DNA from: a virus
Taxonomy: Duplodnaviria; Heunggongvirae; Uroviricota; Caudoviricetes
IMG/VR virus record: IMGVR_UViG_2531839661_000003
Reading direction: 5' to 3' (one strand)
DNA: 5,162 nucleotides
Shown one piece after another: positions 1 to 5,162 of this stretch; positions within the stretch are counted from its first letter, which is position 1, and each line of letters begins with the position of its first letter. The translations under genes and the position numbers were made by a program. The notes under the pieces are model-generated. The model worked only from the letters and a program-made list of their open reading frames with translations. It ran no database searches and was not told the DNA's origin.

Positions 1-492
1 GCCAGTATTGAACTGACGCCGGGCTATTTTCAGATAACGGTGGTCCCGCATCCTGCGGTGTATGACCCGACGGTACAGCATGAATTCTGGTTCTCAGAAA
101 AACGCATCACGGACACGGCACAGGTGGAAACCTCAGCCCGTTATCTGGGGACCGGCAGCCAGTGGAGCGTCTCCGGCCCGCACATTAAGCCCGGGAAGGA
201 TTTCTGGTTTTATGTGCGCAGCGTCAACCTGGTGGGGAAATCTGCGTTTGTGGAGGCCAGCGGGCAGGCCAGCAATGATGGTGAAGGGTATCTGGAAATT
301 TTCCGTGGGCTGATAGACGAGGCGCTGCTGGGGCAGGCACTGAAAGAGCGTATTGATGCGTCAGCCCTGCGTACTGAGGTCACGCAACTGGAAGAAGACA
401 TCCGCCAGCGGCTGGAGACGGATGTTGCGGAAGTGACCCGAAAAATCGGGAGCGGAAAACAGCCTCACGCAGCTGGTTGCGAAAAAGAATGA
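1..492 (+). CDS. J: Host specificity / central tail fibre protein J, internal portion; 5' end lies off-window and the frame ends prematurely at TGA 490-492
   Basis: Frame 1 is open from base 1, so the M at 40 in the ORF track is an internal GTG, not a real start. The translation ([14 protein letters not shown]...[10 protein letters not shown]...[17 protein letters not shown]...) closely matches the region of lambda gpJ preceding its C-terminal receptor-binding part, as I recall it. The reading frame continues in frame 2 (see next feature). Confidence 0.85.
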
Positions 493-517
493 GGACCAGA
501 CGCTGGCCATCGCGCAG

Positions 518-1540
518 GTGAGTCAGCAGGTGGACCGGGTGAGCAGTGAAATCACACAGACCGTCAGCCAGAGCACGGAGGAAAACGCCAGGCAGATAGC
601 GCAGGTCCGCCAGTACGTGGATGACAAAGGGAGTGAAATCACCTCGACCACGGATAAAAAGCTGGAAGACCAGAGCGCCACCATACAGCAGATACAGCAG
701 GTCCAGTCAGACACGAATGATGAGCTGGCAGCGCTGTACATGCTGAAGGTGCAGAAAACGAAAAACGGCATTCCGTATGTTGCCGGTATTGGTGCGGGGA
801 TTGAGGATGCTGATGGCCAGCCCCTGAGCAATATACTGCTGCAGGCGGACCGTATCGCGATGATTAACCCGGAGAACGGCAACACCACGCCGCTGTTTGT
901 GGCGCAGGGGAATCAGCTGTTTATGAACGACGTGTTCCTGAAGCGACTGTTTGCAGTGAGCATCACCTCGTCCGGCAATCCCCCGATGTTCTCCCTGACG
1001 CCGGAGGGCAGGCTGACGGCCCGCAATGCTGACATCAGCGGACATATCAGTGCGAACTCGGGCACGCTCAATAATGTCGTGATAGCGGAGAACTGTACGA
1101 TAAATGGCACGCTGAAAGCGGAGAACATTATTGGTGATCTTGTGAAATGTGCAGGGGTGGCTTTTCCGGTGGATGGTAGTTACCTTGCGAACGGTACACG
1201 AACGCTGACGGTGTATGACGATCACAGCTTTGACCGGCAGATTATAATCCCGCCGATAATCTATGTCGGGTCAAAACAGGAATCCCGCACCAGTAATGAC
1301 ATCTGGACAGAGTGCTTCCTGCATGTTGATCAGAACGGACGCCGGATTTATTCAGGCAGGTCAGTGGAAGAGCCGGGAATTTTCAGCGGGATCATCGATA
1401 TGCCAGCTGGCGGTGGTCATATCACCCTGAGTTTTACCGTGAGCTCACGGCGTCAGAATAACAGTTGGGGCAGTTCACGAATCAGTAACCTTCAGGCGAT
1501 AGTGGTGAAGAAAAACAGCGCGGGGATCAGCATCCGCTGA
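518..1540 (+). CDS. J: Host specificity protein J, C-terminal (receptor-binding) portion; frame 2 is open from 437, so the true continuation begins upstream of the listed GTG at 518
   Basis: The translation ([20 protein letters not shown]...[20 protein letters not shown]...[22 protein letters not shown]...[13 protein letters not shown]...[16 protein letters not shown]...) is near-collinear with the lambda gpJ C-terminus ([35 protein letters not shown] motifs) from memory. Stop TGA at 1538-1540. Confidence 0.85.
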
Positions 1541-1738
1541 ACATCGCGCCCCGGGATTGCCGGAAGGAGACAAAAACCGTACAGTATGCGCGGGTGCCTT
1601 TGGCTGATGGCCGGAGGGAACACCTGAAGGCCGGATGTGAAAAGGCCCCGGACAAAACATTCATGTTTAACCCGAGGCCTGACTTTCGATCTTCAGCAAA
1701 TTGAAGGTTAGCGCCTCTCCGTAAAAGGAGCAAGCGTT

Positions 1739-1879
1739 ATGTCGCAAAAACCGTTAAAAACCACCGTGATTTGTATCACGGTAGTGCTCATTACCTGGAT
1801 CACCCACAGTTCACTGTGCGAGTTCCGGTTCCGGATAGCGGGCGCGGAGATTGCGGCGTTCTTACAGTGTAAGCGGTAA
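1739..1879 (+). CDS. Hok/Gef-family type I toxin-like small membrane protein (46 aa), not in the supplied ORF track
   Basis: ATG 1739 is preceded by AAGGAG (1725-1730) with an 8-nt spacer; stop TAA 1877-1879. Translation: MSQKPLKTTVICITVVLITWITHSSLCEFRFRIAGAEIAAFLQCKR. It has an N-terminal hydrophobic helix (VICITVVLITW) followed by the Hok-family signature SLCE[FI]R[FY]R...E[IV]AAF[LM]; compare plasmid R1 Hok ...[21 protein letters not shown] and chromosomal HokA ...SLCEL...ELAAFLACK (recalled, not searched). Confidence 0.6.
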   Translation: MSQKPLKTTVICITVVLITWITHSSLCEFRFRIAGAEIAAFLQCKR

Positions 1880-1976
1880 GAAACCGTGGCGGAGGAGTGT
1901 ACCTTCCCCGCCGACCGGTTGCTGAGGGTGATCAGCCGGATGGCACCTTTTTAACATCAATAAATCACAAATTTTA

Positions 1977-2010
1977 CCGCAGGCCGGGAAACCGGTCCTG
2001 CGGTTTTTTT
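1977..2010 (+). terminator. Rho-independent terminator: ~11-bp GC-rich stem with one bulge, GAAA loop, followed by T7
   Basis: CCGCAGGCCGG (1977-1987), loop GAAA (1988-1991), CCGG-T-CCTGCGG (1992-2003), TTTTTTT (2004-2010). The reverse complement of the right arm is CCGCAGGACCGG, which matches the left arm apart from one bulged base. Confidence 0.7.
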
Positions 2011-2012
2011 AT

Positions 2013-2017
2013 GGAGG
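2013..2017 (+). promoter_or_regulatory. Shine-Dalgarno (GGAGG) for stf
   Basis: GGAGG at 2013-2017, 6-nt spacer to ATG 2024. Confidence 0.6.
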
Positions 2018-2023
2018 AAATCC

Positions 2024-3736
2024 ATGGCAGTCAGAATATCGGGTGTGCTGAAGGACGGGGCCGGTAAGCCGGTACCGGGATGCACGATAGAGCTGAAAGC
2101 GCGACGCACAACGGAGACGGTGATTGTCACCACGGTGGCGTATGGTCAGCCGGGGGAAACCGGCAGTTACAGTATGGATGTTGAGCCGGGGTTGTACCGG
2201 GTGACGCTGAACACGGAAGGGTACGCGCCGTCATATGTGGGTGACATTCTGGTGAAGGCGGACTCTGCACCGGGAACGCTGAATAAATTTCTGATGGACC
2301 TGGAGGACGCACAGTATTACCCGAAAGCCCTTGCAGAGCTGGAAGCGGTGGCCGCGGAAATCCTGAAACGTGCGGAAGCGTCAGCGGCGAGTGCAGAGGA
2401 AGCGAAGAAACGGGCAGAGAATGCGCGGGGACCGAAGGGGGATAAGGGAGACACCGGGCCACAGGGTATTCCCGGGCCAAAAGGCGATACCGGCGAGCGT
2501 GGGCCAAAGGGTGAGCGTGGTGAGACAGGCCCACAGGGGGTACAGGGGCCACGGGGTGAAACCGGACCCGTGGGACCGCAAGGAGAGGCGGGTATTCAGG
2601 GGCCTGCTGGTCCTGCGGGCCCGCGAGGCGAAACCGGAGCCAGAGGCGAAAAAGGAGAGCCGGGAGATCCCGGAGGACCTCCGGGACCAAAAGGTGACAC
2701 TGGCCCCAGAGGGGAGCCGGGGCCTCAGGGCCCGGCAGGTCCGAGAGGACCAGCCGGAGAGAGAGGGCCGCAAGGATTGCAGGGTGTGGCAGGGGAGAGA
2801 GGCGATACAGGTCCGGCTGGTCCACAGGGCGCTACCGGCCCCAGAGGACCACAAGGGGAAAAAGGGGATAAAGGTGACCCCGGCCCGGCAGGCCCTGCCG
2901 GTGAGCGGGGGCCGAAAGGTGAGCGAGGTGCAACGGGCCCCGTGGGGCCGCAGGGGGCGACGGGGCCAAAGGGCGATAAAGGCGATAAAGGCGAGAGAGG
3001 AGCGCAGGGGCCAGCGGGTCCGGCAGGGAAGTCTGCCAGTCTGGATGATATTGCCGACAAGGAGGCGTTTATTCGTAAGCTTGGGGTGGCAAGAGCTTAC
3101 GGGCGTGATCTCAAAACAGGAGAAGGGGAGTGGACGACAGAAGAGTTCATCAACTGGCTGAAATCACAGGGTGCTTTTGAGGGTCCTTACTGGGTAATGA
3201 CCACGACGCGGTTACTCAACAGTAACCGTGTGATCACGGATGTGGATACTGATTTGGGTAAGAAAAAAATCACCCTGAGAGGATGCGCCATTGAAGTGAT
3301 GGGGTCATGGGAGAATGCGATAGTCCGGATCAGCGCAGGTGATGACCGGCCCTGGGATATGTTTTATGGCACGGACTGCACCTGCGTGGTCAGCGGCAGT
3401 ATAAAGAGCTATGAGTGGCGGTTTAACTACACTTCCATCAGACGCCCCTCAACAGCGAAACTGGATGTGAACGGATGGGAGCGGGATGAGGCAACAGGAA
3501 GAATACGGCAATGGGGGCAGAAACAAGTTGTCCGGCCAACCAGTGACGGAGACACACATACCATCTATTTCCCGATAGCTTTTCCGTCAGCGGCGCTGAA
3601 TGTCATTGTATCACCGGTAGGTTCACCGGGAAATTTCACGGGGTATGCCCTTTCAGAACCGTTGCTGAAGTCGGTAATACTGACGGTCAGTAAGGACACA
3701 TACGGGCTGTTTTACTGGGAGGCCATTGGCTACTGA
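2024..3736 (+). CDS. stf: Side tail fibre protein (Stf) with lambda-Stf-like N-terminal domain, collagen-like Gly-X-Y tract and divergent C-terminal domain
   Basis: N-terminus [28 protein letters not shown]...[10 protein letters not shown]...[10 protein letters not shown] is near-identical in pattern to the lambda Stf N-terminus ([28 protein letters not shown]...YSMDVEYGQY...SQPGTLNDFL, recalled). Residues ~136-337 are uninterrupted GXY triplets apart from one break. Strong SD upstream; stop TGA 3734-3736. Confidence 0.9.
2429..3034 (+). repeat. Collagen-like Gly-X-Y triplet-repeat coding tract inside stf (28 triplets, one extra Pro, then 39 triplets)
   Basis: The translation runs [25 protein letters not shown]...[12 protein letters not shown] with Gly at every third residue. 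The single register break is GGP-P-GPK at nt ~2675-2689. A local 9-bp tandem duplication GGCGATAAA occurs at 2972-2980 and 2981-2989. Confidence 0.85.
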
Positions 3737-3742
3737 GGAGGG
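3737..3742 (+). promoter_or_regulatory. Shine-Dalgarno (AGGAGG) overlapping the stf stop, for the downstream small ORF
   Basis: AGGAGG at 3737-3742, ATG at 3746; the arrangement indicates translational coupling to stf. Confidence 0.5.
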
Positions 3743-3745
3743 AGA

Positions 3746-3958
3746 ATGGAACAGTATTTTTTTTCGCCATCAAATAATGCGTTTTATCCGGCCTCGCTTC
3801 GTTCGGTTTATGAGGCTGCCGGAAGCTGGCCGGAAGACTGTGTTGTTGTGGCGAGTGCCGTGTATAAGGTCTTTTCTGCCAGTGCAGCCCCGGCAGGAAT
3901 GGAGAGGTGTGTGGGGCCGGAGAATATGCCGATCTGGAGAGATGCGGGGCAACGATAA
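3746..3958 (+). CDS. Tail fibre assembly protein-like N-terminal fragment (70 aa), probably a truncated remnant
   Basis: Placed immediately after stf with a coupled SD, as tfa genes usually are. The translation MEQYFFSPSNNAFYPASLRSVYEAAGSWPEDCVVV... resembles the N-terminal pattern of one Tfa family (...FYP...AGSWP-DG-V-VS...), from memory only. It ends at TAA 3956-3958 after 70 codons, far shorter than a typical Tfa (~190 aa). Confidence 0.4.
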   Translation: MEQYFFSPSNNAFYPASLRSVYEAAGSWPEDCVVVASAVYKVFSASAAPAGMERCVGPENMPIWRDAGQR

Positions 3959-3966
3959 GCGGGGCA

Positions 3967-4644
3967 ATGATGGTAAATATTAAAAACTTCATCTGGTATA
4001 CGCCGGAAAATCCGGATGTTCCGGGGGCGATGTACCTGAAATCAGAGGATGGTCAGGACTGGTATGAGTGTCTGCCCTTGTTTTCGCCGGATACGCTGAA
4101 AGTGGTTTATAACAGTGCAGGGGTTATCACTGATATCAGCAGGGACGTACAGGCGCTGTGGCCAGCGAATCAGAGTATTGCGGAGGTGGCGGATACGGAA
4201 GAAAACCGCAAAGCTGATATCTCGGGGCGGTGGGGCTTTGACGGGGAGAAAATCACGGATCTGCTGACCGCGGAGAAAGCGCGCGGGATGAAGGGCGATG
4301 AAATAAACGCGTGGCGTAATGCGATGGAGGCGGCGAACTACACGTTTGAGCACAATGGCCGGAAATGGGACTACGGGAAGTCAACGCAGACGCGTCTTGA
4401 GCCATCGGTGGCGGCAGCGAAAGCGGGGAAACTGCCGGAGGCGTTTTTCTGGACGGATGCGGAAAACAATGATGTGCCGGTGACAGCAGAAGAGCTTATT
4501 GCGCTGAGTGAAGCGGCAGAGCAGGCGATGTTCACCAAAGGGATGGAAATCCACATTCGCCAGCGCACCATGAAGAAGGACCTGGAATCGCTGAGCAGTG
4601 CGGATGAGATCCTGGCATACAGGGTTGGCTGGGCACAGGAATAA
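3967..4644 (+). CDS. tfa: Tail fibre assembly protein (Tfa), Mu gpU / P2 gpG-like N-terminal domain; alternative upstream GTG start at 3907
   Basis: MMVNIKNFIWYTPENPDVPGAMYLKSEDGQDWYE...PDTLKVVYNSAGVITDISRDVQALWPANQSIAEVADTEENRKADISGRWGFDGEKI parallels Mu U / P2 G (...LYSDDGKNWYE...ADTLKMVYDHNGVI...[32 protein letters not shown], recalled). ATG 3967 is chosen by homology; the frame is open from 3868 and the ORF track uses GTG 3907. Stop TAA 4642-4644. Confidence 0.75.
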   Translation: MMVNIKNFIWYTPENPDVPGAMYLKSEDGQDWYECLPLFSPDTLKVVYNSAGVITDISRDVQALWPANQSIAEVADTEENRKADISGRWGFDGEKITDLLTAEKARGMKGDEINAWRNAMEAANYTFEHNGRKWDYGKSTQTRLEPSVAAAKAGKLPEAFFWTDAENNDVPVTAEELIALSEAAEQAMFTKGMEIHIRQRTMKKDLESLSSADEILAYRVGWAQE

Positions 4645-4654
4645 CAGACAAAAA

Positions 4655-4680
4655 GATGGGGGACCATCACCTCCCCCATG
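4655..4680 (-). terminator. Hairpin (8-bp stem ATGGGGGA/TCCCCCAT, 8-nt loop) with the U-tract on the minus-strand side; likely terminator for the convergent dinI-like transcript, possibly bidirectional
   Basis: Stem 4656-4663 / 4672-4679. On the + strand it is preceded by ACAGACAAAAAG, which on the minus strand is CTTTTTGTCTGT immediately 3' of the hairpin. There is no T-run after it on the + strand. Confidence 0.5.
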
Positions 4681-4913: not shown

Positions 4914-5162
4914 TCAGTGAATAAACCAGTCGTCCGCTGTTTCCCAGACATTTTGAAGTGTTTCTTGTACAAACTCTTGCGCGGATTCTTTATCCACGGC
5001 TCTTAAAATAGTGAGTCCATCATTGCTGGCAGATTTAACGATCACTTCTACATCGTCATAACGCTTACTGATTTGTCGCAGCATTTCTTGCTGTAGGGCA
5101 GGAATAGAACCTTTTGGCATTTTGCTGATTTTTTCTTTAGCGATACAGATCTCAATTCGCAT
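4914..5162 (-). CDS. DinI-family (DNA-damage-inducible protein I-like) protein, 82 aa; start codon is the last three bases of the window
   Basis: Minus-strand translation [82 protein letters not shown] aligns along its length with E. coli DinI (MRIEVTIAKTSPLPAGAIDALAGELSRRI...ETWESADDWF, recalled). Its promoter would lie beyond base 5162. Confidence 0.8.

What the first reader, a model, noticed from the sequence alone, without database searches (positions are those of the whole stretch)
3746..3966. Truncated tfa-like ORF coupled to stf, followed out of frame by a different-family Tfa: a likely module-swap scar
The ORF at 3746 has the position and coupled SD expected of the cognate tail fibre assembly gene but stops after 70 codons. 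A full Mu U / P2 G-type Tfa then begins in another frame (ATG 3967; frame open from 3868). This looks like a recombination junction where the 3' part of the original tfa was replaced by a foreign chaperone module. Because Tfa chaperones are specific to the fibre C-terminus, it matters whether this chaperone matches the stf C-terminal domain.
Basis: partly seen in the sequence, partly recalled or inferred. Interest (0 to 1): 0.5.

Follow-up and report, generated by a model that had tools for sequence, protein, structure and literature searches.

The report
Short tail-fibre chaperone, not a scar
The 70-codon gene after this E. coli prophage's side tail fibre gene is a conserved, selected, single-domain short form of a tail fibre assembly protein that always accompanies one type of fibre tip, and not the debris of a recent gene swap.

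Summary
ORF1 (3746-3958, 70 aa) follows stf with a coupled SD. ORF2 (ATG 3967/3970 to 4644) lies in the -1 frame, which is open from 3868.

ORF1 is the N-terminal fibre-binding half of Caudo_TAP-type tail fibre assembly proteins and lacks their conserved C-terminal half. It is not a local truncation scar:
- 88 of 5,426 complete E. coli genomes carry it as a 70-74-aa gene.
- dN/dS is 0.17-0.24 at dS 0.5-1.4, the same range as stf and ORF2.
- It models as one complete domain (pLDDT 86.6).
- Ten diverse stand-alone homologues (68-86 aa) all sit directly after a fibre ending in a Gp53-like_C (R-pyocin-foot-like) tip. This window's Stf has that tip.
- No remnant of the C-terminal half is present in any frame.

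ORF2 is intact but is not a full Mu U/P2 G Tfa. It has a Mu U-type N domain (5YVQ_B, TM 0.87) joined to a DUF4376 C domain. That family also follows fibres with other tips, where ORF1 is absent.

A real mosaic joint lies at about 3938-4000. It contains a 15-nt tandem duplication of ORF2's start region, and this duplication supplies ORF1's stop codon. The cognate partner of the fibre tip is therefore ORF1. Function was not tested.

The parts
2024..3736 (+). stf, side tail fibre (570 aa): phage_tail_N, collagen repeats, a Mu S'-like segment and a Gp53-like_C tip
   Evidence: Pfam: phage_tail_N 3.6e-41, Collagen 5.7e-32, Gp53-like_C 1.8e-11.
3047..3451 (+). Stf residues 342-476, similar to the Mu S/S' fibre shaft segment
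   Evidence: 8JU3_A residues 191-324, E 1.7e-14. The same segment lies internally in the 1720a-02 and phiSTEC1589 fibres.
3494..3733 (+). Stf tip domain (residues 491-570): Gp53-like_C, homologous to the R1/R2 pyocin fibre foot
   Evidence: Pfam PF21882, 44.9 bits against a cut-off of 24.9. 6CXB_A E 1e-8, 6CL5_A E 7.6e-8.
3735..3744 (+). Shine-Dalgarno GAGGAGGGAG for ORF1, overlapping the stf stop codon
   Evidence: Read from the sequence. Relatives have the same 9-nt stf-ORF1 spacing.
3746..3958 (+). ORF1 (70 aa): stand-alone N-terminal fibre-binding domain of the Caudo_TAP Tfa family, a short Tfa
   Evidence: phrog_19350 70/70, E 2.4e-47; phrog_188 E 1.6e-15. Homologues are mostly 130-150-aa Caudo_TAP proteins. 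dN/dS 0.17-0.24. AF2 pLDDT 86.6, one domain covering residues 3-66.
3939..3968 (+). Two tandem copies of a 15-nt unit, GAGATGCGGGGCAAC / GATAAGCGGGGCAAT. The second copy holds ORF1's TAA (3956-3958) and ORF2's GGGG SD, and its last two bases begin ATG 3967. S19-141 has three copies.
   Evidence: the repeat finder; alignment.
3938..3999 (+). Mosaic joint. Homology to the 74-aa-allele cassettes ends at 3937, and homology to the ORF2 of 1720a-02/phiSTEC1589 begins at about 3997-4000.
3967..4644 (+). ORF2 (225 aa, or 224 from ATG 3970): Mu U-type N domain plus DUF4376 C domain, a putative generalist fibre chaperone
   Evidence: DUF4376 6.8e-18 at residues 106-212. 5YVQ_B E 4.6e-15 by sequence; Foldseek E 5.2e-9, TMt 0.87, rmsd 1.5. 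AF2 pLDDT 94.6. Full-length family in E. coli and Salmonella.
4240..4644 (+). Near-invariant DUF4376-coding 3' part of ORF2, shared at 93-100% identity with prophages that carry different N domains and fibre tips; a likely homologous-recombination anchor
   Evidence: PhiR5_1 Tfa carries the same C domain, E 4.9e-67.

Best explanation
The locus is a three-gene side-fibre cassette of an E. coli lambdoid prophage.

Gene 1 is stf, whose tip is a Gp53-like_C domain of the R-pyocin-foot type.

Gene 2 is ORF1. It is a complete ~65-residue domain homologous to the N-terminal, fibre-tip-binding domain of Caudo_TAP tail fibre assembly proteins, expressed as a separate protein by translational coupling to stf. 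It is the tip-specific partner: it binds the C-terminal tip of nascent Stf, and may stay on it.

Gene 3 is ORF2. It is an intact protein with a Mu U-type N domain and a DUF4376 C domain. It belongs to a family that follows side fibres with several tip types and is probably the general assembly or oligomerisation chaperone.

ORF1 lacks the conserved C-terminal oligomerisation domain. That role is therefore either unnecessary for this tip or is supplied in trans, possibly by ORF2.

The ORF1/ORF2 boundary (about 3938-4000) is a mosaic joint between a 'tip + ORF1' module and a 1720a-02-like ORF2 allele. A 15-nt tandem duplication of ORF2's initiation region has modified it. That duplication replaced an ATGA stop/start overlap with a TAA plus an 8-nt spacer.

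Shown: homology, domain boundaries, co-occurrence, purifying selection, mosaic structure.
Inferred: binding to the tip, chaperone function, division of labour with ORF2.
For: 1. Family. Of the 150 best cluster representatives, 93 are 96-170 aa and 80 of these match Caudo_TAP (the example shown, P0006, over its full length). 31 are 66-90 aa. 26 are longer: 21 with Caudo_TAP, 8 with DUF4376 and 6 fused to a Gp53-like_C fibre tip. A profile search gives the same picture.

2. Pairing with the tip.
- All seven E. coli loci fetched that carry ORF1 have the same stf tip type. Gp53-like_C was shown by Pfam for three of them and by sequence similarity for STEC553; four ORF2-bearing loci with other tips lack ORF1.
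- 10 of 10 places carrying diverse short homologues, 2 of 2 full-length ones and the NTD-DUF4376 fusion P0066 lie directly downstream of a Gp53-like_C ORF.
- An R-pyocin-like Pseudomonas phage fibre is followed by a Tfa with this N domain.

3. Selection. ORF1 dN/dS is 0.17-0.24 at dS 0.46-1.46. The stf tip gives 0.15-0.28 and the ORF2 N domain 0.14-0.31.

4. Complete domain. AF2 pLDDT 86.6, with secondary structure spanning residues 3-66.

5. ORF2.. DUF4376 proteins are experimentally required fibre chaperones in Alteromonas phages V22/A5 and Campylobacter CJIE1 (PMC7289586, PMC10579305, PMC7882524).

6. Joint and duplication..

7. Domain model. The N domain binds the fibre and the conserved C domain trimerises it: North et al. 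2019 as summarised in PMC9608196.
Against: - No experiment or complex prediction shows that ORF1 binds Stf.
- ORF1 gives no Pfam or NCBIfam hit of its own, and its model has no significant PDB neighbour.
- The current model holds that the conserved C domain carries the key chaperone function. A C-domain-less protein might therefore be inactive.
- No sequenced phage isolate in the phage collection carries a close (>=60% identical) ORF1, so viability with the short form is unproven.
- This window's J gene is frameshifted, so this particular prophage may be defective.
- ORF2's N-domain alleles do not track tip type, so its target on Stf is unknown.
Confidence: 0.62

Rival explanations
1. Module-swap scar. 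An ancestral full-length Tfa lost its 3' half when a foreign chaperone module (ORF2 or part of it) recombined in. ORF1 is then a functionless leftover kept only by linkage to stf.
For: Most homologues are two-domain proteins. P0066 joins an ORF1-type N domain directly to a DUF4376 domain close to ORF2's (E 7.6e-42). The E. coli arrangement could therefore derive from such a gene by insertion of a Mu U-type N-domain segment. A mosaic joint lies at 3938-4000.
Against: - ORF1 evolves under purifying selection as strong as its neighbours, across alleles that already share the truncation point.
- It ends at a domain boundary.
- Ten short forms occur in unrelated phage types with no DUF4376 gene adjacent.
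- No C-domain remnant is present.
- The stop codon is explained by a 15-nt duplication, not by a large replacement.

An ancient domain-shuffling origin remains possible, but that is not a non-functional scar.
Confidence: 0.15
2. ORF1 is not an assembly factor but a structural cap or adhesin that stays on the mature fibre tip and contributes to receptor recognition, as Mu U does on the Mu fibre.
For: Mu and Ur-lambda Tfa proteins remain on mature fibres and contribute to host recognition (PMC9608196). ORF1 diverges in step with the stf tip. Without an oligomerisation domain, binding is the only activity it can be expected to keep.
Against: No data on virion composition. This reading overlaps the best explanation and does not exclude it.
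Confidence: 0.18
3. ORF1 and ORF2 are one gene, split either by a sequencing error or joined in vivo by programmed -1 frameshifting.
For: ORF2's frame is -1 relative to ORF1 and overlaps it by 91 nt (3868-3958). Tandem-N-domain Tfa proteins exist (P0005, P0019, P0003). A frameshifted variant, P0001, is on record.
Against: - The same two ORFs occur in 45 records at >=99% identity.
- Diverged relatives have an ATGA stop/start overlap.
- ORF2 homologues start at the same Met in loci that lack ORF1.
- The overlap contains no X XXY YYZ slippery site. The only one, T TTT TTT, lies at codons 4-6, where the -1 frame is closed (sequence).
Confidence: 0.03

Closest known systems
Caudo_TAP (PF02413) tail fibre assembly proteins, e.g. 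lambda Tfa, the R2-pyocin chaperone and the ~140-aa enterobacterial Tfa proteins
   Same: ORF1 is homologous to their N-terminal ~65 residues (E down to about 1e-13 singly, 1e-25 by profile). It sits in the same place, directly after the fibre gene and coupled to it, and it pairs with the same Gp53-like_C tip.
   Different: ORF1 lacks the conserved C-terminal helical domain that defines the Pfam family and is thought to drive trimerisation. It does not reach the Pfam threshold.
Mu U / P2 G tail fibre assembly protein (PDB 5YVQ chain B)
   Same: ORF2 residues 1-103 share sequence (33% identity, E 4.6e-15) and fold (TM 0.87, rmsd 1.5 A) with the fibre-binding N domain of Mu U.
   Different: ORF2's C-terminal half is DUF4376, not the Mu U/P2 G C domain. 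The Stf tip here is not the Mu S tip. ORF1 is unrelated to Mu U (hhalign probability 0.3%; no Foldseek hit).
DUF4376 tail fibre chaperones (Alteromonas phage V22 gp27 and A5 gp9; the Campylobacter CJIE1 gene downstream of the H-fibre)
   Same: ORF2 carries a C-terminal DUF4376 domain and lies downstream of a fibre gene. In related prophages it follows the fibre directly.
   Different: The N domains differ. Here a second small protein (ORF1) lies between fibre and chaperone. No experiment exists for the E. coli and Salmonella members.
phrog_19350 / NCBI WP_000438829.1 and WP_001367204.1 (annotated hypothetical protein, phage tail protein or tail fiber assembly protein)
   Same: These are ORF1 itself and its 74-aa alleles, already catalogued.
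   Different: They are catalogued without a function and without the link to Gp53-like_C tips or to the Tfa N domain.

Membership tests
Caudo_TAP (PF02413) tail fibre assembly protein - ORF1 | N-terminal fibre-binding domain homologous to family members | tested here: met
   phmmer and profile hits to 130-150-aa proteins that match PF02413 (P0006, the example shown, over its full length); phrog_188 E 1.6e-15.
Caudo_TAP (PF02413) tail fibre assembly protein - ORF1 | Conserved C-terminal helical (oligomerisation) domain | tested here: not met
   ORF1 stops 6 residues after the N domain. No C-domain similarity in any frame of the window; best E 0.016 over 161 queries.
Caudo_TAP (PF02413) tail fibre assembly protein - ORF1 | Reaches the Pfam gathering score | tested here: not met
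   No Pfam family at E<=0.1; no NCBIfam family.
Caudo_TAP (PF02413) tail fibre assembly protein - ORF1 | Encoded immediately downstream of the fibre gene it serves | tested here: met
   9 nt after the stf stop, with the SD overlapping that stop. The same holds in all relatives and in 10 of 10 places carrying short homologues.
Caudo_TAP (PF02413) tail fibre assembly protein - ORF1 | Required for fibre folding or trimerisation | not testable with these tools
   Needs co-expression or genetics.
Mu U / P2 G-type Tfa - ORF2 | Mu U-like N-terminal domain | tested here: met
   5YVQ_B E 4.6e-15; Foldseek E 5.2e-9, TMt 0.87; phrog_136 1-104/178, E 1.1e-32.
Mu U / P2 G-type Tfa - ORF2 | Conserved Tfa C-terminal domain and the Caudo_TAP threshold | tested here: not met
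   Caudo_TAP scores 16.1 bits against a cut-off of 22.1, over profile positions 5-57 only. The C half is DUF4376.
DUF4376 (PF14301) fibre chaperones - ORF2 | C-terminal DUF4376 domain above threshold | tested here: met
   65.5 bits against a cut-off of 25, residues 106-212.
DUF4376 (PF14301) fibre chaperones - ORF2 | Gene follows a tail fibre gene | tested here: met
   It follows stf directly in L003, L005, L006 and L007. Here and in six related E. coli loci it comes after ORF1.
DUF4376 (PF14301) fibre chaperones - ORF2 | Needed for functional fibre | not testable with these tools
   Shown only for distant members (PMC7289586, PMC7882524).
Gp53-like_C / R-pyocin foot fibre tips - Stf | C-terminal domain matches PF21882 and the solved pyocin fibre foot | tested here: met
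   44.9 bits against a cut-off of 24.9; 6CXB_A E 1e-8.

The most novel reading that the evidence does not exclude
Short, C-domain-less Tfa proteins form a distinct and widespread functional class dedicated to Gp53-like_C (R-pyocin-foot-type) fibre tips. If so, the conserved Tfa C domain is dispensable for this tip, or its role can be supplied in trans. In E. coli prophages the trans supplier would be a separate DUF4376 protein, giving a two-protein 'split' fibre chaperone.
Probability: 0.35. Interest if true: 0.5.

Novelty: new variant of a known kind. Interest (0 to 1): 0.35.

Why it matters
Retargeting phages and R-type pyocins depends on moving a fibre tip together with its cognate chaperone. 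This analysis points to ORF1-type domains as the tip-specific element for Gp53-like_C tips, not the larger DUF4376 gene. It also shows that nature repeatedly uses the binding domain alone.

If the short forms are active, the current model needs qualifying, because that model places the conserved C domain at the centre of Tfa function. Minimal chaperone cassettes for engineering would also become smaller.

For genome annotation, it gives a name and a context rule to a 'hypothetical protein' family (phrog_19350 and relatives).

Tried and rejected
- The search for homologous proteins with ORF1 alone found only 2 proteins because of the word index. The exhaustive phmmer search was needed.
- A Foldseek search of the ORF1 model against the PDB gave nothing below E 1.7, so no fold assignment was made.
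- hhalign of the ORF1 family against the ORF2 family showed no relation. The idea that the two are duplicated N domains is rejected.
- Programmed frameshift or a split gene is rejected (see rivals).
- A search for a leftover Tfa C-domain in all six frames was negative.
- The composition profile shows no discontinuity at the joint.
- Rfam gave no hits in the window.
- The North & Davidson 2021 paper (PMC7811200) is not held. North et al. 2019 was used only through its summary in PMC9608196.
- Phage isolates JK004, ABPH49 and PT1 were checked as possible short forms in viable phages. ABPH49 and PT1 carry full-length Tfa of about 141 aa. In JK004 the match lies within an annotated 162-aa CDS, whose C-terminal part was not examined.
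- ORF2's C domain has only a weak, non-significant prefoldin-beta resemblance (E 0.23). It is recorded as a lead only.

Full report
**1. Observation**

The window is the tail end of an E. coli lambdoid prophage. In the near-identical RM10042 prophage this end lies next to btsS. The window holds these features:
- the C-terminal part of J (to 1540);
- a Hok/Gef-family ORF (1739-1879);
- stf (2024-3736);
- ORF1 (3746-3958, 70 aa);
- ORF2 (3967/3970-4644, 225/224 aa);
- a ykgJ remnant;
- a DinI-like gene on the minus strand, 4914-5162.

The stf stop codon (3734-3736) lies inside the SD GAGGAGGGAG that precedes ORF1's ATG. ORF2 is in the -1 frame, which is open from 3868.

**2. What ORF1 is**

Pfam and NCBIfam give no hit for ORF1. 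PHROGs gives two. One is an end-to-end match to a 70-residue family of unknown function (phrog_19350, E 2.4e-47). The other is a match to positions 43-106 of a 207-position tail fibre assembly family (phrog_188, E 1.6e-15).

An exhaustive phmmer search of 1.8 billion cluster representatives found 357 homologues. The best 150 fall into three length classes:
- 93 are 96-170 aa. Of these, 80 match Pfam Caudo_TAP (the example shown, P0006, over its full length), with the ORF1-like part at their N terminus.
- 31 are 66-90 aa, consisting of the domain alone.
- 26 are longer. Among them 21 have Caudo_TAP, 8 have DUF4376, and 6 are fused behind a Gp53-like_C fibre tip.

A profile search gave the same picture.

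ORF1 is therefore the N-terminal half of the canonical Tfa family. In the accepted model that half is the variable, fibre-binding domain, and the conserved C-terminal helical domain drives trimerisation (North et al. 2019, as summarised in PMC9608196). AlphaFold2 with a 56-sequence alignment models ORF1 as one compact beta-beta-alpha-beta-alpha-beta-beta domain spanning residues 3-66, with mean pLDDT 86.6. The ORF thus ends at a domain boundary. Foldseek finds no significant neighbour in the PDB.

**3. Is ORF1 a scar?**

Five results argue against a recent truncation.

(a) Conservation. 88 of 5,426 complete E. coli genomes carry ORF1-like DNA, always annotated as a short CDS. 45 records have this window's allele at >=99% identity. 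43 records have alleles at 60-80% identity. The diverged alleles fetched encode 74 aa and overlap ORF2 by ATGA.

(b) Selection. Pairwise dN/dS among four alleles is 0.17-0.24 at dS 0.46-1.46. The stf tip gives 0.15-0.28 and the ORF2 N domain 0.14-0.31. The alleles already share the truncation point, so selection has acted on the short form.

(c) Recurrence. Ten places carrying nine diverse short homologues (68-86 aa; P0053 at two places) were located. The settings include P2/HP1-like and Mu-like myovirus modules, an SU10-adaptor module and invertible fibre segments. In all ten places the gene directly follows, often overlapping, an ORF that ends in Gp53-like_C. None is followed by a DUF4376 gene.

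(d) No remnant. tblastn with 161 C-terminal Tfa halves finds nothing in any frame of the window (best E 0.016). The corresponding N halves hit ORF1 at 1e-23.

(e) A small cause for the stop codon. ORF1's unusual tail and stop are explained by a 15-nt tandem duplication (section 6).

**4. Does the chaperone match the fibre tip?**

The last 80 residues of Stf are a Gp53-like_C domain, homologous to the foot of R1/R2 pyocin fibres (6CXB, 6CL5, 6CT8). The evidence that ORF1's domain type goes with this tip is:
- All seven E. coli loci fetched with ORF1 have the same stf tip type. Pfam shows Gp53-like_C for the window, M18 and TB06053, and STEC553 shares the tip by sequence. Four loci that have ORF2 but a different tip (phiSTEC1589-Stx1c, 1720a-02, MDP9-27, PhiR5_1) lack ORF1.
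- Two full-length Caudo_TAP proteins with the same N domain (Pantoea, Hafnia) also follow Gp53-like_C fibres.
- So do the full-length Tfa genes of phages ABPH49 and PT1.
- A Pseudomonas phage fibre that is a close homologue of the R-pyocin fibre (6CL6, E 1e-121) is followed by a Tfa whose N domain is 41% identical to ORF1.
- Natural fibre-Tfa fusions (P0033, P0039) join a Gp53-like_C tip directly to this domain.

ORF1 is therefore the component that matches the fibre tip.

**5. What ORF2 is**

ORF2 is a full-length member of a large E. coli and Salmonella family of 220-235 aa. Residues 22-107 match Mu U (5YVQ_B, E 4.6e-15). The AF2 model has pLDDT 94.6. Its N domain superposes on 5YVQ_B with TM 0.87 and rmsd 1.5 A.

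Residues 106-212 are DUF4376 (65.5 bits). This region is helical, with only a weak, non-significant likeness to prefoldin beta. Caudo_TAP scores below its cut-off. ORF2 is therefore not a full Mu U/P2 G Tfa.

DUF4376 proteins are experimentally required fibre chaperones in Alteromonas phages V22 and A5 and in the Campylobacter CJIE1 prophage.

The DUF4376-coding part (from about 4240) is 93-100% identical among prophages with different N domains and different fibre tips. The N domain is not conserved in this way. The C domain is a constant module and a likely recombination anchor. ORF1 and the ORF2 family are unrelated (hhalign probability 0.3%).

**6. The junction**

Homology of the diverged ORF1 alleles ends at 3937, after the conserved Trp64. 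Homology to the ORF2 of 1720a-02 and phiSTEC1589 is at random level up to about 3999 and then rises to 97%. The interval between holds two tandem copies of a 15-nt unit, at 3939-3953 and 3954-3968. Strain S19-141 has three copies.

With a single copy the sequence would read ...TGG AGA GAT GCG GGG CAA TGA TGG. ORF1 would then end in TGA overlapping ORF2's ATG, as it does in the relatives. This is an inference.

It separates two complete genes and does not cut one.

**7. Deeper history (inference)**

P0066 (196 aa) joins an ORF1-type N domain directly to a DUF4376 domain close to ORF2's (E 7.6e-42). It follows a Gp53-like_C tip in a Mu-like invertible segment. The PhiR5_1 Tfa joins a third N-domain type to the same C domain.

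The E. coli three-gene arrangement could therefore have arisen long ago, if a Mu U-type N-domain segment with its own start codon came to lie between an ORF1-type N domain and its DUF4376 domain. The direction cannot be decided with the present data. The product has since been kept by selection.

**8. Mechanism**

The favoured mechanism is as follows. ORF1 is made by coupling to stf and binds the Gp53-like_C tip as it forms. ORF2, or nothing, supplies the oligomerisation step.

None of the binding or chaperone steps was tested. This particular prophage has a frameshifted J gene. No phage isolate in the collection carries a close ORF1.

Confidence that ORF1 is a conserved, functional short Tfa and not a scar is about 0.6.

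**9. Verdict**

The finding is a new variant of a known kind: a Tfa without its C domain, tied to one tip type. It is of moderate interest (0.35). It is useful for fibre and chaperone engineering and for annotation.

Noticed in passing
window 440-520: Relative to the RM10042 prophage, the window has two 1-nt deletions in a G-rich stretch of J (GGGGAGG becomes GGG-A-G, near 451-453). They split J into 40-492 and 518-1540. This is either a defective prophage or homopolymer sequencing errors.
   Followed up: partly
window 1739-1879: A Hok/Gef-family toxin ORF (46 aa) lies between J and stf, where lambda carries lom. Rfam finds no Sok-like RNA at gathering threshold.
   Followed up: partly
P0003 (from; not in the window): A 999-aa protein made of at least 8 tandem ORF1-type domains followed by a single Caudo_TAP C domain. 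This is an unusual 'poly-N-domain' Tfa.
   Followed up: no
L018 390-1036; L021 2597-3580; L025 2423-4858: Invertible fibre segments carry a short-form Tfa on one arm and a full-length Caudo_TAP on the other (L018, L021). L025 carries two DUF4376-type chaperones facing each other, next to a resolvase/invertase gene.
   Followed up: partly
window 3756-3763: A T8 run lies at codons 4-6 of ORF1. Database protein P0001 is a variant that enters ORF1 from another frame and leaves it again, so length changes at homopolymers occur in this gene.
   Followed up: no
window 2547-2819: The collagen-repeat region of stf does not align colinearly with RM10042. This suggests repeat-number or phase polymorphism in the fibre shaft.
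   Followed up: no
window 4240-4644: The DUF4376-coding 3' half of ORF2 is 93-100% identical across prophages at different insertion sites (btsS, potB, yecD, yfhH) and across different tail types. This fits a shared recombination anchor at the right edge of the fibre cassette.
   Followed up: partly
window 4656-4679: An 8-bp GC-rich hairpin is followed by a T-run on the minus strand. It is terminator-like for leftward transcription from the dinI/ykgJ-remnant side.
   Followed up: no
L010 (STEC2018-553) 492-3433: The identical 74-aa ORF1 allele (WP_001367204.1), with its stf tip and ORF2, sits in a non-lambdoid tail module (adaptor protein plus a 678-aa fibre). The tip-ORF1-ORF2 cassette therefore moves between phage types.
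   Followed up: partly
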